A stretch of DNA of 25,037 bases from a virus (taxonomy: Duplodnaviria; Heunggongvirae; Uroviricota; Caudoviricetes): IMG/VR virus record IMGVR_UViG_3300045988_138129, positions 1-25,037 of that record; one strand, 5' to 3'. This document shows positions 7,080-19,418 of the stretch, in pieces. The first letter of the stretch is position 1. Every line of letters starts with the position of its first letter. The notes beneath the pieces were generated by a model. The model was given only the letters and a program-made list of their open reading frames with translations, did no database searches and was not told the origin of the DNA. The translations under genes were made by a program, and so were the position numbers.

Positions 7080-8153
7080 TTACTTTCCATTTTTTAATGA
7101 ATTGATTAACGATGCTATTTGCTCAATGCCATCAAATGTAGATGGTATCTTATCATCGGATAGCATGATGTTTGAAAATACTACGTCTTCGAATTTTGAA
7201 AGCGCTTCCGGATTGTTTTTCCTTATCTCTGAGGAATAGTCGCTATAACTCTGAATGAACTGACAAAGGCTCTTTCTGAGTTCTATTTGCATAATCTGAG
7301 TTCGTAACGATATATGATTTAGCAGTACAACTCTAAAGTAATACATGAAAATCAATGTAACTGATGCAAAAGGTAGTGCTGACATAAAATATGTGGCAGC
7401 ATTTGTCGTTTCGAGAGCTGGTAATTTATGCATTCCATAGTATATCAGCGGGGAGGGAATGATTATAGCCAAGATGATAAGAGTTATTCTTGATAGCATG
7501 ATTTCACTTTCTTTCTTTTTGCCAAGTGAATTAAAGCCTTCAAACAATCCAACAAAATTAAATGCGACCTCATACCCTTTTAATGACTCTTTGATTGACT
7601 CTATTTTGGCATGTTGCTCCTTTAAGAAGGAGTCGCACTTTTCGAAAAATTGACGCCCTTCGTTTAAACTATCAATGTATTTTTTATATGTGTCAACATT
7701 GCTGGAGCTTAAAACTTCTTTAACCATTGCTAATGGCAGTTCTCTAAGAGAAAAGTCTATCTGTGCTCTGCTCCGCTCATCGAATTCATTATAGTTATAC
7801 AGAGCAAAATCCTTGATGGTTCTTAGTGGTGAAAAGTGAGACTCTATTTCCGGAGAGAGAATGCTTGGTTCAATGATAAATCTAAAAAAGCAAGTGAATA
7901 TAAGGTTGATGCTGTTGTTATCTTCTCCCTTTTCTCTTAAGAAACTTTTAAAGGTGTCGCCAATCATAGCAATGTTGTACTGGGATTTTTTGTCCCAATC
8001 TTCAGGGTTTTCGGAAATGAAGTTTATTGCTTGAGCAATTATTTTGTTTCTGCTTGATTCAAAGTTTGTGCCGGGAGTCAGCGTGTTCAAAAAGACCAGA
8101 TAATCTTTGAACAATTCTTTCATTGTTTCTGACGAGAAAAAGTAAGTACTCAT
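7080..8153 (-). CDS. Hypothetical two-TM membrane protein in the S-V accessory position; candidate abortive-infection or defense protein
   Basis: Uninterrupted minus-strand ORF, AT-rich by eye. Soluble N-terminal ~240 aa, two hydrophobic helices (LSRITLIILAIIIPSPLIYYG; AATYFMSALPFASVTLIFMYYFRVVLL), C-terminal ~85 aa tail. ATG at 8153 (MSTYFF...) gives 358 aa and avoids overlapping V; alternative starts are GTG at 8249 (389 aa, overlaps V) and ATG at 8123. Confidence 0.75.
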   Translation of the reverse strand: MSTYFFSSETMKELFKDYLVFLNTLTPGTNFESSRNKIIAQAINFISENPEDWDKKSQYNIAMIGDTFKSFLREKGEDNNSINLIFTCFFRFIIEPSILSPEIESHFSPLRTIKDFALYNYNEFDERSRAQIDFSLRELPLAMVKEVLSSSNVDTYKKYIDSLNEGRQFFEKCDSFLKEQHAKIESIKESLKGYEVAFNFVGLFEGFNSLGKKKESEIMLSRITLIILAIIIPSPLIYYGMHKLPALETTNAATYFMSALPFASVTLIFMYYFRVVLLNHISLRTQIMQIELRKSLCQFIQSYSDYSSEIRKNNPEALSKFEDVVFSNIMLSDDKIPSTFDGIEQIASLINSLKNGK

Positions 8154-8239
8154 AATGGATTTTGTTGTCCCTTGTTGTTCTGTGCACCAGAAATCGTGGT
8201 GTGATTTACTTCGAGATTGTACAGAATCATTATTATCGA
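8154..8239. promoter_or_regulatory. Divergent intergenic region, expected site of the V late promoter and of the cargo-gene promoter
   Basis: 86-bp gap between the cargo-gene start (8153, minus) and the V start (8240, plus), containing TTGTTGT...TTGTTCTGT elements. Called from position only. Confidence 0.3.
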
Positions 8240-8869
8240 ATGAATGCACAATACAATGAAATTCTTCGCTTTATACGCAATATGATTCGCACTGGCATTA
8301 TCGTCGAAACCGACCTTAATGCCGGTCGCTGCCGTGTGCAGACCGGCGGCATGTGCACCGACTGGCTTCAGTGGCTGACCCATCGCGCCGGTCGTTCGCG
8401 CACATGGTGGGCACCTTCCGTGGGGGAACAGGTGCTGATTCTGGCCGTGGGCGGTGAACTCGACACGGCGTTCGTTCTGCCGGGGATTTATTCCGGCGAT
8501 AACCCCGCGCCGTCGGCGTCGGCGGATGCCCTGCATATCCGTTTCCCTGACGGGGCGGTGATTGAGTATGAACCTGAAACCAGTGCACTCACGGTAAGCG
8601 GAATTAAAACGGCCAGCGTGACGGCTTCTGATTCTGTTACTGCCACGGTGCCGGTGGTCATGGTGAAAGCATCAACCCGCGTCACCCTGGACACACCGGA
8701 GGTGGTCTGCACCAACAAGCTGATTACCGGCACGCTGGAAGTGCAGAAGGGCGGGACGATGCGCGGCAACATTGAACACACCGGCGGTGAACTTTCATCA
8801 AACGGGAAGGTACTGCATACCCATAAACACCCCGGCGACAGCGGCGGCACAACCGGGAGTCCTCTATGA
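8240..8869 (+). CDS. V: Baseplate spike / assembly protein gpV
   Basis: MNAQYNEILRFIRNMIRTGIIVETDLNAGRCRVQTGGMCTDWLQWLTHRAGRSRTWWAPSVGEQ... matches P2 gpV. The ORF-track start at 8162 is an upstream extension. Confidence 0.93.
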   Translation: MNAQYNEILRFIRNMIRTGIIVETDLNAGRCRVQTGGMCTDWLQWLTHRAGRSRTWWAPSVGEQVLILAVGGELDTAFVLPGIYSGDNPAPSASADALHIRFPDGAVIEYEPETSALTVSGIKTASVTASDSVTATVPVVMVKASTRVTLDTPEVVCTNKLITGTLEVQKGGTMRGNIEHTGGELSSNGKVLHTHKHPGDSGGTTGSPL

Positions 8870-12753: not shown

Positions 12754-13281
12754 ATGCAGCATTTAAAAAATATTACTGCGGGTAATCCCAAAACTGTTGC
12801 CCAATATCAACTGACAAAAAATTTTGATGTTATCTGGTTATGGTCTGAAGACGGAAAAAACTGGTATGAGGAAGTAAGTAATTTTCAGGAAGACACGATA
12901 AAGATTGTTTACGACGAGAATAATATAATTGTCGGCATCACCAGAGATGCTTCAACGCTTAACCCTGAAGGTTTTAGCGTTGTCGAGGTTCCTGATATTA
13001 CCGCCAACCGACGTGCTGATGACTCAGGTAAATGGATGTTTAAGGATGGTGCCGTGATTAAGCGGATTTATACGGCAGACGAACAGCAGCAACTGGCAGA
13101 ATCACAAAAGGCAACTTTACTTTCCGAAGCTGAATCCGTGATTTTGCCGCTGGAGCGCGCTGTCAGGCTGAATATGGCAACAGATGAGGAGCGCAGCCGA
13201 CTGGAAGCATGGGAACGCTACAGCGTTCTGGTCAGTCGTGTGGATCCTGCAAATCCTGAATGGCCGGAAATGCCGCAATAA
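12754..13281 (+). CDS. G: Tail fiber assembly chaperone gpG
   Basis: 175 aa, [41 protein letters not shown]...; Tfa-type fiber assembly protein immediately after H. Confidence 0.9.
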
Positions 13282-13326
13282 GTTGTATGAGCTGACATAC
13301 CTATAGCACAGAGTAAAGTCTAATCT

Positions 13327-13355
13327 GACAGTCCGCTCTGTGCCAAGAGCAGACG
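13327..13355. repeat. Near-palindromic site A (GACAGTCCGCT-ctgtgccaag-AGCAGAC), left boundary of the transporter cassette
   Basis: 7-bp arms GTCCGCT / AGCAGAC with one central mismatch, 10-nt core. Related to sites B (17003) and C (18008). Lies in the 315-bp gap between G and the BetT-like gene. Confidence 0.6.
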
Positions 13356-13596
13356 CTGGTAATTCGTGCCTAATATACTTCACTTAACTTATATCCCAGC
13401 TTTGATACAGATCATACAAATTAAATGCCCCAGTAATTGGCAGGCTGAGTAACTTAAAACTCCTTAGAATATAGGATGATTTGTATCGGCACTCATTCCA
13501 CCATGCATTCCGATTAATCCCGCATAGCCAGTTGAACTTTGCTACTCTGTGAGAGGTAGTACCTTCTATCCAGTGCGGATTTAATTAATGGAATAA

Positions 13597-15600
13597 ATGA
13601 TTATGAGTGAAAATGATACAACCCCAAAGAAGTCTACAAGCCAGGTTAACAAAGCGGTATTCTTTACATCTGCTTTGCTAATTTTCCTTCTTGTCGCCTT
13701 TGCCGCCGTATTCCCGGATGTCGCCGACAAAAATTTTAAACTACTTCAGCAACAAATCTTCACGAATGCCAGCTGGTTCTACATACTTGCTGTGGCCCTG
13801 ATTTTACTGAGCGTCACGTTCCTTGGACTCTCACGTTACGGTGATATAAAGCTGGGCCCAGACCATGCGCAGCCTGATTTCAGCTACCACTCCTGGTTCG
13901 CGATGCTTTTTTCGGCAGGGATGGGGATCGGCCTGATGTTCTTTGGCGTTGCCGAACCTGTGATGCATTATCTTTCGCCACCTGTCGGCACTCCAGAGAC
14001 CGTTGCGGCAGCGAAGGAAGCCATGCGCCTGACGTTCTTCCACTGGGGTCTGCACGCATGGGCAATTTATGCCATCGTGGCGCTGATTCTGGCCTTTTTC
14101 AGTTACCGTCACGGTCTGCCTTTAACGCTGCGTTCTGCGCTCTATCCCATTATCGGCGATCGCATTTACGGGCCTATAGGCCACGCGGTTGATATCTTCG
14201 CCGTGATAGGCACTGTCTTTGGCGTTGCAACATCGCTGGGTTACGGTGTATTGCAGGTGAATGCCGGTTTGAACCATCTTTTCGGCGTGCCCATCAATGA
14301 AACGGTACAGGTCATTTTGATCGTGGTCATCACGGGGTTAGCGACGATTTCGGTGGTGTCCGGCCTGGACAAGGGAATACGCATCCTGTCTGAGCTTAAT
14401 CTGGGCCTGGCGGTGTTGCTCCTGGCGCTGGTCTTGTGCCTGGGTCCCACTGTGCTTCTGCTGAAGTCATTTGTGGAAAATACGGGTGGTTATCTGTCGG
14501 AACTGGTGAGTAAAACGTTCAACCTTTACGCGTATGAACCCAAGTCGAGCAACTGGCTGGGGGGCTGGACATTATTATACTGGGGATGGTGGCTTTCATG
14601 GTCGCCGTTTGTAGGTATGTTCATTGCACGCGTTTCCCGCGGCAGGACAATTCGTGAGTTCGTGACTGGCGTGTTGTTTGTTCCCGCCGGCTTTACGCTC
14701 ATGTGGATGACGGTGTTTGGAAACAGCGCCATCTATCTCATCATGAACCAGGGCGCCACTGACCTCGCCAATACCGTTCAGCAGGATGTTGCGCTTGCCC
14801 TGTTTAATTTCCTGGAGCATTTCCCGTTCTCTTCCGTGCTGTCATTCATTGCAATGGCGATGGTCATCGTCTTCTTTGTAACGTCTGCTGATTCGGGGGC
14901 AATGGTTGTGGATACTCTGGCATCAGGTGGGGTGGCAAACACGCCCGTCTGGCAGCGAATTTTCTGGGCATTGCTCATGGGCGTTGTTGCTATTGCCCTG
15001 CTGATCGCAGGGGGGCTGAGTGCGTTGCAAACCGTAACGATAGCGAGTGCATTGCCCTTCTCAGTTATCTTATTAATATCCATATACGGACTGTTAAAAG
15101 CCCTGCGTCGGGATTTGACCAAGCGTGAAAGCCTTAGCATGGCGACTATTGCTCCTACGGCTGCACGTAACCCAATTCCTTGGCAGAGAAGGTTACGCAA
15201 TATCGCGTATTTGCCGAAGCGCTCTCTTGTGAAACGTTTTATGGACGACATTATCCAACCCGCCATGACGCTGGTTCAGGAGGAACTTAACAAGCAGGGA
15301 ACGATAAGCCACATCAGTGACGCCGCCGAGGATCGTATTCGCCTTGAAGTCGATTTGGGCAACGAGCTGAATTATATATATGAAGTGAGGCTTCGCGGGT
15401 ATAACTCACCGACCTTCGCGCTCGCTGCGCTGGATAATGATGAGCAGCAGAGTGAACAACATCGATATTATCGCGCTGAAGTCTATCTCAAAGAGGGCGG
15501 CCAAAATTATGATGTAATGGGCTGGAATCAGGAACAGCTGATTAATGACATACTGGACCAGTACGAAAAACACCTGCACTTCCTGCATCTGGTTCGTTAA
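13597..15600 (+). CDS. BCCT-family transporter, BetT-like (choline/betaine-type), full length with long C-terminal cytoplasmic domain
   Basis: 667 aa, ~12 hydrophobic helices. BCCT signature GWTLLYWGWWLSWSPFVGMFIARVSRGRTIREF. Conserved blocks resembling BetT at both ends (YGDIKLGP...AMLFSAGMGIGLMFFGVAEPV; QEQLINDILDQYEKHLHFLHL). Alternative start ATG at 13603. Confidence 0.85.
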   Translation: MIMSENDTTPKKSTSQVNKAVFFTSALLIFLLVAFAAVFPDVADKNFKLLQQQIFTNASWFYILAVALILLSVTFLGLSRYGDIKLGPDHAQPDFSYHSWFAMLFSAGMGIGLMFFGVAEPVMHYLSPPVGTPETVAAAKEAMRLTFFHWGLHAWAIYAIVALILAFFSYRHGLPLTLRSALYPIIGDRIYGPIGHAVDIFAVIGTVFGVATSLGYGVLQVNAGLNHLFGVPINETVQVILIVVITGLATISVVSGLDKGIRILSELNLGLAVLLLALVLCLGPTVLLLKSFVENTGGYLSELVSKTFNLYAYEPKSSNWLGGWTLLYWGWWLSWSPFVGMFIARVSRGRTIREFVTGVLFVPAGFTLMWMTVFGNSAIYLIMNQGATDLANTVQQDVALALFNFLEHFPFSSVLSFIAMAMVIVFFVTSADSGAMVVDTLASGGVANTPVWQRIFWALLMGVVAIALLIAGGLSALQTVTIASALPFSVILLISIYGLLKALRRDLTKRESLSMATIAPTAARNPIPWQRRLRNIAYLPKRSLVKRFMDDIIQPAMTLVQEELNKQGTISHISDAAEDRIRLEVDLGNELNYIYEVRLRGYNSPTFALAALDNDEQQSEQHRYYRAEVYLKEGGQNYDVMGWNQEQLINDILDQYEKHLHFLHLVR

Positions 15601-15607
15601 CAGCAAC

Positions 15608-15636
15608 ATGCCGCCACAGAGGCGGCATTTATTTAT
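15608..15636 (+). terminator. Rho-independent terminator after the BetT-like gene
   Basis: ATGCCGCC-acag-GGCGGCAT hairpin followed by TTATTTAT, 8 nt after the stop at 15600. Confidence 0.75.
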
Positions 15637-15663
15637 CCCGGCTGCAATATGAGGGAATGCAGA

Positions 15664-16941
15664 ATGATTTCACGCTGGAAATGGATGCTGAAGCAGACAT
15701 TTAAAAAACTATGGTTCAGGGCAACGTTATTCGCAATTGTCGCAATAATAACGGCCCTTTTATCAATTCTTTTTAAATCAATGATACCTGAGTCGGTTTC
15801 CGTGAAGGTTGGTGCGGAAGCAGTCGATAACATTCTGAACATACTGGCATCGAGTATGCTGGCAGTGACCACATTTTCGCTGAGCATCATGGTCACAGCC
15901 TACGGTTCAGCCACTACTAATGTGACTCCCAGAGCTACTCGTTTAGTTGTTGAAGACGTCACCACACAAAATGTACTGGCCACCTTCATCGGTTCTTTTC
16001 TCTTCAGTCTGGTAGGGATTATTGCCCTCAATATGGGAGCTTATGGAGAAAGGGGGAGAGTCATTTTATTCATTGTAACACTGGTTGTCATTGCCTTAAT
16101 CCTCATCACATTGCTTCGCTGGATACAGCATTTGACCTCTCTGGGGAGGGTTGGTGAGACAACGGCAAAAGTAGAACAGGCGGCCATCGAAACATTTATT
16201 GCGAGAGCAAGAAATCCCTGTCTCGGCGGATATCCATGGCTTGAGAACAATGAACAGCCGAAAGGAACGGTTGCAGTTTATCCGAAAAAGATTGGCTATG
16301 TTGAATATGTTGATATGGTGAAACTCAGCAAGCTGCTGACCAATGATCCCCGTCATGTATACCTCGTGGCGCAGCCGGGCAGTTTCATACATCCGTCCAC
16401 GCCAGTTTTGTACCTGAGTCAGGGCCAGGAGTCATCAATCAGCACCGATTTACTTGAGACGATTATTGTCTCGGATGTACGTTCATTTGCTCAGGACCCC
16501 CGATTTTGTCTTAGCGTCATGGCCGAAATAGCCTGCCGAGCCCTTTCCCCCGCAGTGAACGATCCTGGAACCGCCATTGATGTCATTGGCAGAGGTGTAC
16601 GTATACTTTCCGCTTACGCGCAGAATAAATCTGATGAAATAGAAGTGAAATATCCTTCTGTACATGTTGCACCACTTCAGAATAACGATCTACTTGAAGA
16701 CTTTTTCTCACCTGTTGCGCGCGATGGTGCCAGTATGAGGGAAATTCAGATAAGGGTCCTTAAAGGACTGTCGATGCTGAGTAAGGGTTGGCCTGGAATT
16801 TTTGCTGAAGCCGCACAAACCCTAGCATTTGAAACATTAGAGCATGCTACTCGTGCTGACCATATAGATTCTGACAGATATCTAATAAAATCAATTTATT
16901 ATAATTTATTTAGTGGCGAAGATTCTAATAAAAAACCATAG
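15664..16941 (+). CDS. Membrane protein with four N-terminal TM helices and a large cytoplasmic domain; DUF2254-like (family assignment from memory, uncertain)
   Basis: GAGGG RBS before the ATG at 15664 (MISRWKWMLKQ...); the ORF-track start at 15649 is less likely. Four hydrophobic helices in the first ~160 aa. Conserved-looking block SFAQDPRFCLSVMAEIACRALSPAVNDPGTAIDVIGRG. Confidence 0.75.
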   Translation: MISRWKWMLKQTFKKLWFRATLFAIVAIITALLSILFKSMIPESVSVKVGAEAVDNILNILASSMLAVTTFSLSIMVTAYGSATTNVTPRATRLVVEDVTTQNVLATFIGSFLFSLVGIIALNMGAYGERGRVILFIVTLVVIALILITLLRWIQHLTSLGRVGETTAKVEQAAIETFIARARNPCLGGYPWLENNEQPKGTVAVYPKKIGYVEYVDMVKLSKLLTNDPRHVYLVAQPGSFIHPSTPVLYLSQGQESSISTDLLETIIVSDVRSFAQDPRFCLSVMAEIACRALSPAVNDPGTAIDVIGRGVRILSAYAQNKSDEIEVKYPSVHVAPLQNNDLLEDFFSPVARDGASMREIQIRVLKGLSMLSKGWPGIFAEAAQTLAFETLEHATRADHIDSDRYLIKSIYYNLFSGEDSNKKP

Positions 16942-17002
16942 TTGCGGAGCAAGCGATACGGTTGTTGGCAAGTCAAGGGCAAAGCATTCGCGTGAGAGTG
17001 GG

Positions 17003-17027
17003 CGTCTGCTTTGTGCCAACAGCGGAC
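17003..17027. repeat. Near-palindromic site B (GTCTGCT-ttgtgccaac-AGCGGAC), between the convergent DUF2254-like and HNH genes
   Basis: Core 8/10 identical to site A in direct orientation. Its arms are the reciprocal variants of site A's arms (A: GTCCGCT/AGCAGAC; B: GTCTGCT/AGCGGAC). Confidence 0.6.
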
Positions 17028-17081
17028 ATTATAGATGGTATATGTAGAAAGTGAACATGCGTAGATTGTATGATTTAGCCG

Positions 17082-17891
17082 TCACTTAATTATTGGATAA
17101 CTCACACAAGTATGACCGTTGCTTATCGCATACATTTGGTTTCCCTTAAGATTTACAAATGGAAATGTCGTATACTCATAATTTATAGAGGTCATATTAA
17201 ATGTAAGGAATTTATCTTCAAGTTCTAATTTTGTAGAGTGGGCAGGGTATGTTCCTTCATTTCTCATTGTGATAATAAAACCGATAGGAAAAAAATGTAA
17301 AGCACAAATAAATGCCACATGTCCTTCGTTCATAAATGCTACACTTTGAGCGGATATGTGCATTCTGTGTGGGTAAAACCAGTAGTAAATATCATGAGTT
17401 TCCTCAAAACTTGAATTTTTACCCAAAACATAATCCTTTAAAGGTGTATAGAAGGGGCTATCTACGGGTTCTTTTTTACAATCTTCAACTGAAGTTGCTG
17501 ATAGCACGTGCCCAATCATAGCCTTAGTGAAAGATATGCTATCAAAAGGTATTCTAATGAATGGATATACATTCATACCATTCATATATCGACTTAACTG
17601 TTCTTTAAAGGACTTTGTTACATTTTCAATTGCAACATCGAGCCCACCTAATACCTTATTGTTACAGTGGCTGCAAATGGTTCTGAAATAAGAGCCATTT
17701 TTAGCATTTAATGGTTTAACTGGTTCCTGAATACCAAAAAATTCGCTAACTGTTTTCTGCAAAACAGGGCCTAAGGTTATGGCGCACTTTGGAGGAACAT
17801 GATCTTTTGTGAGCAAGCCATATTTCCCACAAATATTGCAATAACCTTCAGTAATGCCATTGTGCTTCCATCGTTCACTAATTTTCGTCAT
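17082..17891 (-). CDS. HNH endonuclease-domain protein (N-terminal HNH motif, C-terminal domain of unknown function)
   Basis: 269 aa, AT-rich, GAGGGA RBS before the ATG at 17891. Motif C-N-I-C-G-x9-D-H-V-P-P-K ... N-x12-C-S-H-C-N-N-K fits the CxxC...(D/H)H..P...N...CxxC(N)xK HNH zinc-finger nuclease pattern. Confidence 0.78.
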   Translation of the reverse strand: MTKISERWKHNGITEGYCNICGKYGLLTKDHVPPKCAITLGPVLQKTVSEFFGIQEPVKPLNAKNGSYFRTICSHCNNKVLGGLDVAIENVTKSFKEQLSRYMNGMNVYPFIRIPFDSISFTKAMIGHVLSATSVEDCKKEPVDSPFYTPLKDYVLGKNSSFEETHDIYYWFYPHRMHISAQSVAFMNEGHVAFICALHFFPIGFIITMRNEGTYPAHSTKLELEDKFLTFNMTSINYEYTTFPFVNLKGNQMYAISNGHTCVSYPIIK

Positions 17892-18007
17892 TTTTATTCC
17901 CTCAGTAGCATAAGCTATCTATACGTTTTTTAATCCTATCAAAGATACAACTTAACGTCAGGAAAATGATAGTGTTTATCTAAGTAATACAATTAACTTC
18001 AACGCGT

Positions 18008-18039
18008 GACAGTCTGCTTTTCGCTCAAAGCAGACTGTC
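18008..18039. repeat. Perfect palindrome site C (GACAGTCTGCTTT-tcgctc-AAAGCAGACTGTC) upstream of the HNH gene
   Basis: 13-bp perfect inverted arms around a 6-nt centre. The arms share the GACAGTC(T/C)GCT...AGCAGAC sequence with sites A and B. No T-run follows, so it is not a classic terminator; it could be a recombination site or operator. Confidence 0.65.
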
Positions 18040-18103
18040 AGATTTGATAGCGTTTTGGCTATGTAAATTGTCAGTCGGAAAATGAGTGAGTACAAACTAG
18101 GAC

Positions 18104-18128
18104 AGGCGGGCGAATTGCCCGCCTTTTC
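18104..18128 (+). terminator. Rho-independent terminator (plus orientation) just upstream of the FI promoter region
   Basis: AGGCGGGC-gaatt-GCCCGCCT hairpin followed by TTTTCT. Confidence 0.7.
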
Positions 18129-18227
18129 TGTATCTGTTGTTTCATCCACTGACCAGACAGATCAAATAGCGTCTCATGCTCTGTACAACAGAAAATAGTT
18201 GCACCCATTAACCACGGAGTTAAACGG
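18129..18227 (+). promoter_or_regulatory. Expected late promoter region for the FI-FII-E-T-U-D operon
   Basis: Called from position: the ~100 bp upstream of FI after the terminator, containing a TGTTGTTTCATCC...CCAGACAGA element. I could not confirm an exact match to the late-promoter dyad I recall from the P2 literature. Confidence 0.3.
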
Positions 18228-19418
18228 ATGAGTGACTATCATCACGGCGTGCAGGTGCTGGAGATTAACGACGGCACCCGCGTCATTTCAACCGTATCCA
18301 CCGCCATTGTCGGCATGGTCTGCACGGCCAGCGATGCGGATGCGGAAACCTTCCCCCTCAATAAACCGGTGCTGATTACCAATGTGCAGAGCGCAATTGC
18401 AAAGGCCGGTAAAAAAGGCACGCTGGCGGCATCGTTGCAGGCCATCGCTGACCAGTCAAAACCGGTCACCGTTGTTGTGCGCGTGGAAGACGGCACCGGC
18501 GACGACGAAGAAACGAAACTCGCGCAGACCGTTTCCAATATCATCGGCACCACCGACGAAAACGGTCAGTACACCGGACTGAAAGCCCTGCTGGCGGCGG
18601 AGTCGGTAACCGGTGTTAAACCGCGTATTCTCGGCGTACCGGGACTGGATACCAAAGAGGTGGCTGTTGCACTGGCATCAGTCTGTCAGAAGTTGCGCGC
18701 TTTCGGGTATATCAGCGCATGGGGCTGTAAAACCATTTCCGAGGTGAAAGCTTACCGCCAGAATTTCAGCCAGCGTGAGCTGATGGTCATCTGGCCGGAT
18801 TTCCTCGCATGGGATACGGTCACCAGTACCACCGCCACCGCGTATGCTACCGCCCGTGCGCTGGGTCTGCGTGCCAAAATCGACCAGGAGCAGGGCTGGC
18901 ATAAAACGCTGTCCAACGTCGGGGTGAACGGTGTTACCGGCATCAGCGCATCTGTATTCTGGGATTTGCAGGAGTCCGGCACCGATGCTGACCTGCTTAA
19001 CGAGTCAGGCGTCACAACACTGATTCGCCGTGACGGTTTCCGCTTCTGGGGTAACCGTACCTGCTCTGATGACCCGCTGTTCCTCTTTGAAAACTACACC
19101 CGCACCGCACAGGTACTGGCCGACACGATGGCTGAGGCGCACATGTGGGCGGTGGACAAGCCCATCACCGCAACGCTGATTCGTGACATCGTTGACGGCA
19201 TCAATGCCAAATTCCGTGAGCTGAAAACAAACGGCTATATCGTGGATGCGACCTGCTGGTTTAGCGAAGAATCCAACGATGCGGAAACCCTCAAGGCCGG
19301 AAAACTGTATATCGACTACGACTATACCCCGGTGCCTCCTCTTGAAAACCTGACCCTGCGCCAGCGTATCACCGATAAATACCTGGCAAATCTGGTCACC
19401 TCGGTTAACAGCAATTAA
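18228..19418 (+). CDS. FI: Tail sheath protein gpFI
   Basis: 396 aa, MSDYHHGVQVLEINDGTRVISTVSTAIVGMVCTASDADAETFPLNKPVLITNVQ...; contractile tail sheath of P2 type. Confidence 0.95.
   Translation: MSDYHHGVQVLEINDGTRVISTVSTAIVGMVCTASDADAETFPLNKPVLITNVQSAIAKAGKKGTLAASLQAIADQSKPVTVVVRVEDGTGDDEETKLAQTVSNIIGTTDENGQYTGLKALLAAESVTGVKPRILGVPGLDTKEVAVALASVCQKLRAFGYISAWGCKTISEVKAYRQNFSQRELMVIWPDFLAWDTVTSTTATAYATARALGLRAKIDQEQGWHKTLSNVGVNGVTGISASVFWDLQESGTDADLLNESGVTTLIRRDGFRFWGNRTCSDDPLFLFENYTRTAQVLADTMAEAHMWAVDKPITATLIRDIVDGINAKFRELKTNGYIVDATCWFSEESNDAETLKAGKLYIDYDYTPVPPLENLTLRQRITDKYLANLVTSVNSN

What the first reader, a model, noticed from the sequence alone, without database searches (positions are those of the whole stretch)
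17082..17891. Stand-alone HNH-nuclease-domain protein in the phage cargo position, convergent to the transporter cassette
The N-terminus carries a clear HNH motif (CNICG...DHVPPK...N...CSHCNNK), while the C-terminal ~170 aa has no feature I can assign. The gene is AT-rich, has a strong RBS and its own upstream region containing the perfect palindrome C. Single HNH proteins in prophage cargo positions are candidates for anti-phage nucleases or homing endonucleases. This may correspond to a Z/fun-type gene, but I cannot confirm that from memory.
Basis: partly seen in the sequence, partly recalled or inferred. Interest (0 to 1): 0.65.

Follow-up and report, generated by a model that had tools for sequence, protein, structure and literature searches.

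The report
Orphan HNH-like nuclease gene cassette in prophage
The gene is real and encodes an uncharacterised zinc-finger (HNH-type) nuclease-like protein that travels as a 1-kb cassette between prophage cargo hotspots; a defence role is plausible, but the only relative tested so far protected against no phage.

Summary
Observation confirmed. Window 17082-17891 (-) is a 269-aa ORF under purifying selection (dN/dS 0.10-0.15), with 35% GC in a 52% GC P2-like prophage. It lies between tail-fibre-assembly gene G and sheath gene FI, the P2 Z/fun hotspot.

The N-terminus carries an invariant set C18xxC21...D30-H31...C73xxC76-N77. It is a divergent HNH_5/endonuclease-VII-type finger split by a ~30-aa insert. 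Pfam is below threshold for this protein, but HNH_5 hits 59 of 84 relatives. The C-terminal ~180 aa has no detectable relative by sequence or fold.

It is not P2 Fun(Z). It is not tied to the BCCT/DUF2254 transporter genes: phage pro147 carries it alone.

Relatives sit beside CBASS, Shedu and the validated system DS-13. DefensePredictor scored a 52%-identical E. coli paralog as defensive. That paralog ("PDP1") was cloned and protected against none of 24 phages. Defence therefore remains an inference.

The gene sits in a 1008-bp cassette between conserved 24-bp dyad sites (cores GTGCCA(A) and TCGCTC(A)). These sites also flank unrelated cargos in P2-like and Rac-like prophages and in IncF plasmids. 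One cassette encodes a 200-aa tyrosine recombinase. This suggests site-specific cassette exchange.

The parts
17082..17891 (-). ORF of 269 aa (WP_000161640.1), including the stop codon
   Evidence: dN/dS 0.10-0.15; PHROG phrog_21495, E 4e-195, function unknown
17622..17846 (-). N-terminal HNH_5/endonuclease-VII-like beta-beta-alpha-metal finger, residues 16-90. Zinc ligands C18, C21, C73, C76. Catalytic candidates D30, H31, N77. A ~30-aa low-confidence insert spans residues 36-65.
   Evidence: Invariant columns in 84 diverse relatives. Pfam HNH_5 hits 59/84 relatives, in two halves covering profile 1-25 and 22-54. AF2 secondary structure E24-32, E67-73, H74-81. Codons checked.
17085..17621 (-). 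C-terminal alpha/beta domain, residues 91-269, with invariant G127-H128, W171, P202 and P244. No known relative.
   Evidence: AF2 pLDDT mostly 83-96. No PDB or BFVD fold match. No Pfam, NCBIfam or PDB sequence match. Found only in this ~270-aa architecture.
17899..17904 (-). Shine-Dalgarno GAGGGA, 7 nt upstream of the ATG
   Evidence: read directly from the sequence
17004..17027 (.). Site S2, GTCTGCTTT-GTGCCA-ACAGCGGAC. Boundary between the BCCT/DUF2254 module and the HNH module.
   Evidence: Pattern search gives 3 hits against 0.00 expected. Breakpoint seen in the pro147, Rac-like and IncF comparisons.
18007..18040 (.). Site S3 (core 24-mer at 18012-35), GTCTGCTTT-TCGCTC-AAAGCAGAC.
   Evidence: The right half is conserved in P2 itself and in 37/70 P2-like loci.
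13331..13354 (.). Site S1, GTCCGCTCT-GTGCCA-AGAGCAGAC. Boundary between P2 (after gene G) and the BCCT module.
13597..16941 (+). Neighbouring cargo module: BCCT transporter (13597-15600) and DUF2254 membrane protein (15649-16941). A separate module, not a functional partner.
   Evidence: Pfam. NCBIfam BetT-type subfamily, 751.8 bits. GC 48.7% against 35.1% for the HNH gene. The HNH gene occurs without these genes.
18104..18124 (+). Terminator-like hairpin with a T-run on the P2 side, upstream of the FI promoter region
   Evidence: conserved in P2 and pro147

Best explanation
The gene encodes a cytoplasmic, single-polypeptide metal-dependent nuclease of the His-Me finger (HNH) superfamily. Its catalytic finger is a divergent HNH_5/endonuclease-VII type. 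Four cysteines (C18, C21, C73, C76) would hold a structural zinc. H31 at the end of the first strand would act as general base. D30 and N77 would bind the catalytic divalent metal. The finger is fused in a fixed architecture to a ~180-residue domain of unknown fold. That domain most likely provides substrate or trigger specificity, or autoinhibition. The gene is carried with its own upstream region as a self-contained 1.0-kb cargo cassette, antisense to the P2 late operons, so it would be expressed from the lysogen. Its most likely role is inter-element conflict: lysogenic-conversion defence or exclusion by cutting incoming or replicating foreign DNA, or host DNA in an abortive response. Shown here: the gene is real, constrained and mobile; the motif set is invariant; the contexts are cargo hotspots and defence islands. 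Inferred: catalysis, the role of the C-terminal domain, expression in the lysogen, and the defence role.
Confidence: 0.5

Rival explanations
1. A selfish or homing-type HNH endonuclease. It would cut an empty or rival hotspot, possibly at the dyad boundary sites, and thereby promote copying of its own cassette. Its spread would reflect drive rather than benefit to the host.
For: Free-standing HNH genes are classic homing endonucleases. The same cassette is found at 99-100% identity in two unrelated prophage families. Endonuclease_7, a structure-specific nuclease family, is weakly hit in 13 relatives. The tested paralog gave no defence phenotype.
Against: At least 38 unrelated cargo types use the same boundary sites, so mobility does not depend on this gene. 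Relatives occur in many contexts that lack these sites. The family has strong full-length purifying selection and a large fixed C-terminal domain. No recognisable DNA-binding module typical of homing enzymes was found.
Confidence: 0.12
2. A non-catalytic zinc-binding protein, such as a DNA-binding regulator or adaptor, that merely retains a treble-clef/HNH-like scaffold. This is what the database name 'metal-binding protein' implies.
For: Sources annotate relatives as 'metal-binding protein' or 'chaperonin'. Pfam scores are below threshold and no significant fold match to a nuclease was found. Inactivated HNH folds are known within the superfamily.
Against: The catalytic residues are conserved, not just the cysteines: H31 and N77 are invariant across 84 divergent relatives and D30 is conserved in at least 90%. 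That pattern is not expected of a purely structural zinc ribbon. The 'chaperonin' name has no support in any profile search.
Confidence: 0.1
3. A toxin or addiction module that stabilises the carrying element by killing cells that lose it, rather than a defence against phages.
For: It is carried on prophages, satellites and plasmids next to toxin-antitoxin pairs (RelB/ParE in L004, RelBE and PemIK in L003). A constitutive nuclease would be toxic. No anti-phage phenotype was seen for the paralog.
Against: No conserved neighbouring antitoxin gene exists; the gene is the only cargo in pro147. No Rfam RNA was found in the region. The paralog was clonable and testable in MG1655.
Confidence: 0.08
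4. A functional partner of the adjacent BCCT transporter and DUF2254 membrane protein, forming a three-gene operon-like unit.
For: The 4.7-kb block of BCCT, DUF2254 and this gene is found at 99.8-100% identity in P2-like and Rac-like prophages and in IncF plasmids.
Against: The gene is convergent with the other two. It has 35% GC against their 49%. A boundary site (S2) separates them. In L002, two other modules lie between them. The gene occurs alone in 13 viral contigs and in pro147. Distant relatives never have these neighbours.
Confidence: 0.03
5. An ortholog of P2 Fun(Z), the T5-blocking lysogenic-conversion protein.
For: It occupies the same slot in the same antisense orientation.
Against: Fun(Z) is 528 aa and BLASTP finds no similarity (best E 0.34).
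Confidence: 0.01

Closest known systems
Pfam HNH_5 (PF14279) / T4 endonuclease VII-type His-Me finger nucleases (Endonuclease_7, PF02945)
   Same: It has a Cys4 zinc site made of two CxxC pairs. An Asp-His pair ends the first strand. An Asn immediately follows the second CxxC (CxxCN), followed by an 'LG..D' tail. The strand-strand-helix order is the same.
   Different: A ~30-residue insert separates the two halves, so curated thresholds are not met. There is no detectable similarity outside the finger. The C-terminal 180 aa is unique to this family.
P2 hotspot lysogenic-conversion genes (fun(Z), old, tin) and the P2/P4 hotspot defence systems of Rousset et al. 2022 (PMC9122126) and Moura de Sousa et al. 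2026 (PMC13586616)
   Same: It occupies the same Z/fun slot in the same antisense orientation. It is a single gene, AT-rich, and swapped between otherwise near-identical phages.
   Different: The sequence is unrelated to Fun(Z). It was not found in the main text of either paper or in the held (partly truncated) supplements of the 2022 paper; no supplements are held for the 2026 paper. No phenotype is known.
'PDP1' candidate (WP_001609855.1) of the DefensePredictor study (PMC13092281)
   Same: It belongs to the same family, with 52% identity over the full length and the same motif set. It is predicted defensive (log-odds 7.5).
   Different: It is a different allele in a different context (a chromosomal island between CBASS and DS-13). 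It tested negative against 24 phages. The window allele itself was not found in the held, partly truncated, tables.
Septu PtuB, McrA and other stand-alone or effector HNH nucleases of defence systems
   Different: There is no ATPase partner (PtuA) and no McrA-type N-terminal DNA-binding domain. No PADLOC model reaches significance for this protein.
R64 shufflon sfx sites / heterospecific lox-type cassette exchange (for the boundary sites only)
   Same: The sites are short arm-core-arm recombination-like sites. One core reads GTGCCAA, identical to the sfx core (PMC4176322). A tyrosine recombinase gene lies alongside.
   Different: The arms differ from the sfx right arm TCCGGTACGTGG. Modules are permuted, not inverted. 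The recombinase is 200 aa (catalytic domain only, Xer/FimB-like). I recall Rci as a larger protein with an extra C-terminal domain; that domain is described in PMC11852207, but the size difference was not checked here. No recombination has been demonstrated.

Membership tests
His-Me finger / HNH superfamily | Catalytic His at the end of the first beta strand (general base) | tested here: met
   H31 is invariant and D30 is conserved in at least 90% of 84 relatives. It lies at the C-terminal end of predicted strand E24-32.
His-Me finger / HNH superfamily | Metal-ligand Asn or His on the following alpha helix | tested here: met
   N77 is invariant, directly follows C76 and lies in helix H74-81. 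It is equivalent to N62 of T4 endonuclease VII by motif order.
His-Me finger / HNH superfamily | Beta-beta-alpha-metal fold recognisable by structure comparison | tested here: inconclusive
Pfam HNH_5 (PF14279) | Score at or above the curated gathering threshold (27.5 bits) | tested here: not met
   The window protein scores 11.6 bits, E 0.29, over residues 18-35 only. Relatives score below threshold in 59/84 cases, best E 2.3e-6, with the match split into two half-profile hits.
Pfam HNH_5 / Endonuclease_7 | Cys4 zinc site formed by CxxC...CxxC flanking the active site | tested here: met
   C18 is conserved in at least 90% of relatives; C21, C73 and C76 are invariant.
His-Me finger / HNH superfamily | Metal-dependent nuclease activity | not testable with these tools
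   Requires biochemistry.
P2 Fun(Z) | Sequence homology to NP_046777.1 | tested here: not met
   BLASTP best E is 0.34; the proteins are 528 and 269 aa.
P2 Fun(Z) | Location between G and FI, antisense to the late genes | tested here: met
Known anti-phage defence systems (PADLOC-DB v2.0.0) | Match to a system protein model | tested here: not met
   No hit even at E up to 10 for the window protein. Only 2 of 84 relatives touch PtuB at 5e-5.
Anti-phage defence gene (functional definition) | Reduces plating of at least one phage when expressed | tested here: inconclusive
   Not testable directly here. In the literature, the 52%-identical paralog PDP1 is scored defensive = FALSE against 24 phages (PMC13092281 Table S6). 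The window allele is untested.
Anti-phage defence gene (contextual definition) | Enrichment next to known defence systems or in mobile-element hotspots | tested here: met
   The contexts are the P2 Z/fun slot, a Rac-like hotspot, a P4-like satellite hotspot, CBASS plus DS-13 neighbours, and a cassette array containing Shedu. This is qualitative; no statistic was computed.
Homing endonuclease | Presence/absence polymorphism at a fixed site with cleavage of the empty allele | not tested
   The slot is polymorphic but filled by unrelated cargos. No empty-site target could be defined.
Shufflon (Rci/sfx) system (for the boundary sites) | 7-bp core GTGCCAA | tested here: met
   S1, S2 and all left-boundary sites read GTGCCAA. 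The sfx core is given in PMC4176322.
Shufflon (Rci/sfx) system (for the boundary sites) | Conserved 12-bp right arm TCCGGTNNNTGG and inversion of segments | tested here: not met
   The arms read ARAGCRGAC(NTTA). Modules I, A, B and C keep their orientation and change order only.

The most novel reading that the evidence does not exclude
The gene is one interchangeable cartridge in a natural recombinase-mediated cassette-exchange system. The P2 Z/fun hotspot and a hotspot downstream of a DUF977 gene in Rac-like lambdoid prophages are each bracketed by two heterospecific dyad sites of about 13-6-13 bp. The left core is GTGCCA(A) and the right core is TCGCTC(A). Every cargo, including at least 12 unrelated ones, brings its own matching arms. 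A 200-aa tyrosine recombinase is itself a cassette with the reversed core order. Because the two cores differ, cargo could be swapped between phages and plasmids without being deleted. This would give a mechanism for the very fast hotspot turnover whose mechanism the 2026 P2/P4 study left open. Within this system, the HNH-like protein would be a widespread new single-gene conflict nuclease with a sensor domain of novel fold.
Probability: 0.4. Interest if true: 0.8.

Novelty: new variant of a known kind. Interest (0 to 1): 0.5.

Why it matters
If the protein is an active nuclease used in inter-element conflict, it defines a large unannotated family. The family has at least 1800 clusters at 50% identity, no Pfam, NCBIfam or PADLOC model, and a C-terminal domain with no structural relative. 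It is present in about 4% of complete E. coli genomes and in prophages, satellites, plasmids and cassette arrays.

The negative result for a paralog makes it a useful test case. Either the machine-learning and context-based predictions are false positives here, or the family targets something that standard coliphage panels miss. Candidates are satellites, plasmids, temperate phages and modified DNA.

The boundary sites may matter more than the gene. They offer a testable molecular explanation for how unrelated prophages and plasmids exchange identical cargo modules.

Tried and rejected
- **P2 Fun(Z) identity.** Rejected: no similarity.
- **Functional coupling to BCCT/DUF2254.** Rejected: the gene occurs alone, has a different GC content, and a boundary site lies between the modules.
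- **A conserved partner gene.** The 493-aa neighbour in Pectobacterium and the 476-aa neighbour in E. coli are unrelated to each other. No conserved neighbour appears across contexts.
- **Solved-structure relatives by sequence.** I searched with the whole protein, the whole-family profile, the N-terminal profile and the C-terminal profile. Nothing was found.
- **hhalign of the N-terminal profile against T4 endonuclease VII and MobC.** Not significant; the insert breaks the alignment.
- **Bridging to annotated HNH proteins with the N-terminal profile.** The search returned only fragments of the same family.
- **Domain swapping of the C-terminal domain.** None found; only the same architecture is seen.
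- **Rfam scan of 13200-18300.** No RNA family matched.
- **Palindrome as terminator or hairpin.** S3 folds strongly (z = -5.0), but S1 and S2 fold no better than shuffled sequence. The loop/core sequence is conserved. The shared property is therefore sequence, not hairpin stability.
- **Sigma-70 promoter scan.** No candidate was found on the gene's strand between the ATG and S3.
- **Literature.** No paper holds the accession, the PHROG id or the site sequences.

Full report
**1. What is there**

Window 17082-17891 (minus strand) is an ATG-initiated ORF of 269 aa. It is identical to RefSeq WP_000161640.1, annotated 'hypothetical protein'. The window matches a P2-like prophage of E. coli S10 integrated next to yegQ.

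The gene lies between the tail-fibre-assembly gene (P2 gene G homolog, 12754-13281) and the tail-sheath gene FI (18228-19418). This is the slot that holds fun(Z) in phage P2. Two plus-strand genes share the slot. One is a BCCT transporter (13597-15600; Pfam BCCT E 3e-199; NCBIfam BetT-type subfamily, 751.8 bits). The other is a DUF2254 membrane protein (15649-16941). The ORF is convergent with them.

The gene has 35.1% GC. The window as a whole has 52.2%, and the two transporter-module genes have 48.7%. A GAGGGA Shine-Dalgarno sequence lies 7 nt before the ATG.

The ORF is a real, constrained gene:
- dN/dS is 0.148 against a 94%-identical allele and 0.105 against an 84%-identical Pectobacterium allele.
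- The gene is present in 229 of 5426 complete E. coli genomes.
- An exhaustive profile search of 1.8 billion representative proteins found 1803 clusters at E below 1e-3. Of these, 362 are below 1e-30. Nearly all of the 150 best hits listed are ~260-300 aa and match end to end.

**2. What the protein is**

No curated library places the protein. Pfam gives only HNH_5 at E 0.29 (11.6 bits against a cut-off of 27.5) over residues 18-35. NCBIfam and PADLOC give nothing. PHROGs gives phrog_21495, function unknown. Sequence searches of the PDB find nothing. Database names for relatives ('chaperonin', 'metal-binding protein') have no support.

The family alignment is informative. I aligned 84 relatives that share as little as 19% overall identity with the window protein. 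The invariant columns are C21, H31, P33, P34, C73, C76, N77, D85, G127, H128, W171, P202 and P244. C18 and D30 are conserved in at least 90%.

Scanning those 84 proteins one by one against Pfam gives HNH_5 in 59 (best E 2.3e-6), Endonuclease_7 in 13 and HNH in 10. The HNH_5 match comes as two halves. Profile positions 1-25 cover CxxC...DHVPP. Positions 22-54 cover ...CxxCN..LG..D. A family-specific insert of about 30 residues separates them.

By direct inspection the order parallels T4 endonuclease VII. The window protein reads C18xxC21...D30-H31...C73xxC76-N77. The T4 enzyme reads C23xxC26...D40-H41...C58xxC61-N62. hhalign did not score this as significant.

AlphaFold2 with the family alignment gives a confident single globule (mean pLDDT 84.6, pTM 0.87). 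Strand 24-32 ends at D30-H31, strand 67-73 follows, and helix 74-81 carries N77. This is the beta-beta-alpha-metal order. The insert (residues ~33-66) has low confidence.

The C-terminal ~180 residues are confidently modelled but have no relative by sequence or fold. A profile of this domain alone finds only proteins of the same ~270-aa architecture. It is therefore not a shuffled module.

My reading is that this is a divergent HNH_5/endonuclease-VII-type His-Me finger with a complete catalytic set, welded to a novel domain. I do not file it as a member of Pfam HNH_5, because the curated threshold is not met.

**3. Where the family lives**

- The 94%-identical allele is the only gene in the G-FI slot of Escherichia phage pro147 (a Peduovirus) and of a prophage in E. 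coli E148. Its orientation there is the same as in the window.
- Relatives without any transporter neighbour occur in several mobile elements. These are a P4-like satellite of Pectobacterium beside toxin-antitoxin pairs, the accessory end of a Vibrio filamentous prophage, a Pseudomonas island with resolvases and an Enterobacter prophage next to the terminase genes.
- A Plesiomonas homolog lies in an array of short mixed cassettes that includes Shedu SduA (PADLOC E 4e-164) and a HEPN AbiU2 gene.
- A 52%-identical paralog in E. coli 55989 lies between a CBASS pair (cyclase E 6e-113, 2TM effector E 2e-70) and a two-gene operon.

P2 Fun(Z) (528 aa) is unrelated.

**4. What has been tested by others**

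The DefensePredictor study (Science 2026, PMC13092281) lists that paralog, WP_001609855.1, as working id 'PDP1' in Table S6. Its DefensePredictor log-odds is 7.50 and its category is 'Predicted novel defense gene'. It was cloned (MG1655 pCV1-PDP1). The column 'defensive' reads FALSE and no DS name was assigned. The study's panel was 24 coliphages.

The adjacent operon (WP_000387046.1 + WP_001022716.1, 'TMO1') was validated as DS-13.

So the family sits in genuine defence islands and is predicted defensive by an independent method. Its one tested member showed no phenotype.

Neither the 2022 nor the 2026 P2/P4 hotspot paper mentions the protein in its main text. The held, partly truncated, supplements of the 2022 paper do not list it either. 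No supplements are held for the 2026 paper.

**5. Most likely mechanism**

Shown: gene reality, selection, the motif set, mobility and context.

Inferred from established knowledge of His-Me finger enzymes: the four cysteines bind a structural zinc. H31 activates the attacking water. D30 and N77 hold the catalytic divalent cation. The product ends are 5'-phosphate and 3'-OH.

Inferred from architecture: the invariant C-terminal domain (D85, G127-H128, W171) confers target or trigger specificity, or autoinhibition.

Inferred from position and orientation: the gene is expressed from the lysogen, like old, tin and fun(Z). It acts on competing DNA or triggers abortive infection.

I put about 0.7 on 'active His-Me nuclease' and about 0.5 on the full statement including a conflict or defence role. 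The rivals are a selfish/homing nuclease, a non-catalytic zinc protein, an addiction toxin, a transporter partner and a Fun(Z) ortholog. They are weighed in the rival-explanations section of this report; the last two are effectively refuted.

**6. The palindrome and the cassette**

The 4.7-kb block of BCCT, DUF2254 and this gene recurs at 99.8-100% identity in three settings: four P2-like prophages, Rac-like lambdoid prophages, and IncF plasmids. Aligning these contexts with pro147 and P2 shows that similarity ends at short dyad sites.

The pattern GTCYGCTYT-N6-ARAGCRGAC occurs three times in the window, against 0.00 expected. All three copies lie at module boundaries:
- S1 at 13331-13354 (P2 | BCCT module).
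- S2 at 17004-17027 (DUF2254 | HNH module).
- S3 at 18012-18035 (HNH module | P2).

There are two core classes: GTGCCA(A) at S1 and S2, and TCGCTC(A) at S3. P2 itself has one site of each class at the two ends of its fun(Z) slot.

In the Rac-like prophage the module order is I-A-B-C. In the IncF plasmid it is I-C-B-A. Here I is BCCT plus DUF2254, A is a 476-aa protein, B is a 200-aa tyrosine recombinase and C is the HNH module. All modules keep the same orientation, and junctions overlap by 19-25 bp. The recombinase matches Pfam Phage_integrase at E 1e-17 and resembles Xer and FimB-type enzymes.

Modules A and C start at a GTGCCA core and end at a TCGCTC core. Module B has the reverse order. 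The permutation is then exactly what results from two steps: excision of an A-B circle at GTGCCA cores, and its reinsertion through the internal TCGCTC core (reasoning).

A scan of viral contigs found at least 119 with the GTGCCAA-class site. Seventy of these lie just after a DUF977 gene (the Rac-like hotspot) and about 27 lie after gene G. The genes downstream fall into 38 unrelated clusters.

In 11 contigs a TCGCTC site follows exactly 1008 bp later. That is the HNH cassette alone, at 99-100% protein identity. Ten of these contigs are Rac-like and one is P2-like.

I also took a sample anchored only on gene G, giving 70 P2-like loci. Twenty-five have GTGCCAA just after G. In all 25 the cargo-side arm keeps the consensus (ARAGCGGAC-NTT), although at least 12 different sequences follow it. 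The chance of such an arm match is about 0.03 per site. On the other side, 37 loci have TCGCTCAAAG before FI, and 25 of those have a consensus cargo-side arm (chance about 0.01).

S1 and S2 do not fold better than shuffled sequence. The conserved feature is therefore the sequence, not a hairpin.

The GTGCCAA core equals the core of R64 shufflon sfx sites (PMC4176322). The arms and the outcome (permutation rather than inversion) differ, so this is a resemblance only.

I infer that these are site-specific recombination sites, and that the two heterospecific cores would allow cassette exchange without loss of cargo. No recombination event has been demonstrated. The recombinase gene is present in only 4 of 119 contigs, so the enzyme acting in P2 lysogens is unknown. 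No paper in the library prints these sequences.

**7. Verdict**

The protein is an HNH-like nuclease candidate in a prophage cargo slot. It is not Z/fun, it is not linked to the transporter, and its anti-phage role is unproven; one family member tested negative.

It is a new variant of a known kind: a single-gene HNH effector candidate with a novel fused domain. The cassette-boundary sites found on the way are the most novel element and deserve their own follow-up.

Noticed in passing
window 13331-13354, 17004-17027, 18012-18035; L002 8001-15451; L003 8004-15455; L012 336-359 and ~2433-2460: Conserved 24-bp dyad sites (arms GTCYGCTYT / ARAGCRGAC, cores GTGCCA(A) or TCGCTC(A)) bound every cargo module. 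They flank the P2 Z/fun hotspot and a Rac-like hotspot after a DUF977 gene. The same modules are permuted (I-A-B-C versus I-C-B-A) between a prophage and an IncF plasmid. Unrelated cargos carry their own consensus arms. This suggests site-specific cassette exchange.
   Followed up: partly
L003 12748-13350 (also L002 13799-14401): A 200-aa catalytic-domain-only tyrosine recombinase (WP_001752951.1, Xer/FimB-like) is itself a module bounded by the same sites with the reversed core order. It is a candidate enzyme for the exchange. It is present in only 4 of 119 site-bearing viral contigs.
   Followed up: partly
window 13597-16941: A BetT-type BCCT osmolyte transporter plus a DUF2254 membrane protein occupy a slot usually described as a defence hotspot. 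The same module rides on IncF plasmids; in the one examined in detail (L003) it lies beside qnrS1 and IS26. It is metabolic or osmoprotective cargo rather than defence.
   Followed up: partly
window 7080-8123 (-) (ORF listing gives 7080-8249): A second antisense cargo gene (WP_000661081.1, hypothetical) lies between the virion-morphogenesis gene and baseplate gene V of the prophage. It has no Pfam, NCBIfam or PADLOC match.
   Followed up: partly
L013 (phage pro147) versus window 17969-17978 and 18048-18057: pro147 lacks the 79-bp stretch that contains S3. The missing stretch is bracketed in the window by the direct repeats GATAGTGTTT and GATAGCGTTT. This looks like a deletion by microhomology that removed the right-hand site.
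   Followed up: no
L014 6079-10876 (E. coli 55989): The 52%-identical paralog sits between a type I CBASS pair (2TM effector and cyclase) and the operon validated as DS-13 in PMC13092281. This is a compact chromosomal defence island flanked by IS elements.
   Followed up: partly
L003 13923-15353 (also L002 12228-13658): A 476-aa protein (WP_001460374.1) forms another cassette with the same site types as the HNH module. It has no match in Pfam, NCBIfam or PADLOC.
   Followed up: no
window 18104-18124: A GC-rich hairpin with a T-run (GGCGGGC-GAAT-TGCCCGCC-TTTT) lies on the P2 side, between the cargo and the FI promoter region. It is conserved in P2 and pro147 and is probably a terminator that insulates the late operon from cargo transcription.
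   Followed up: no
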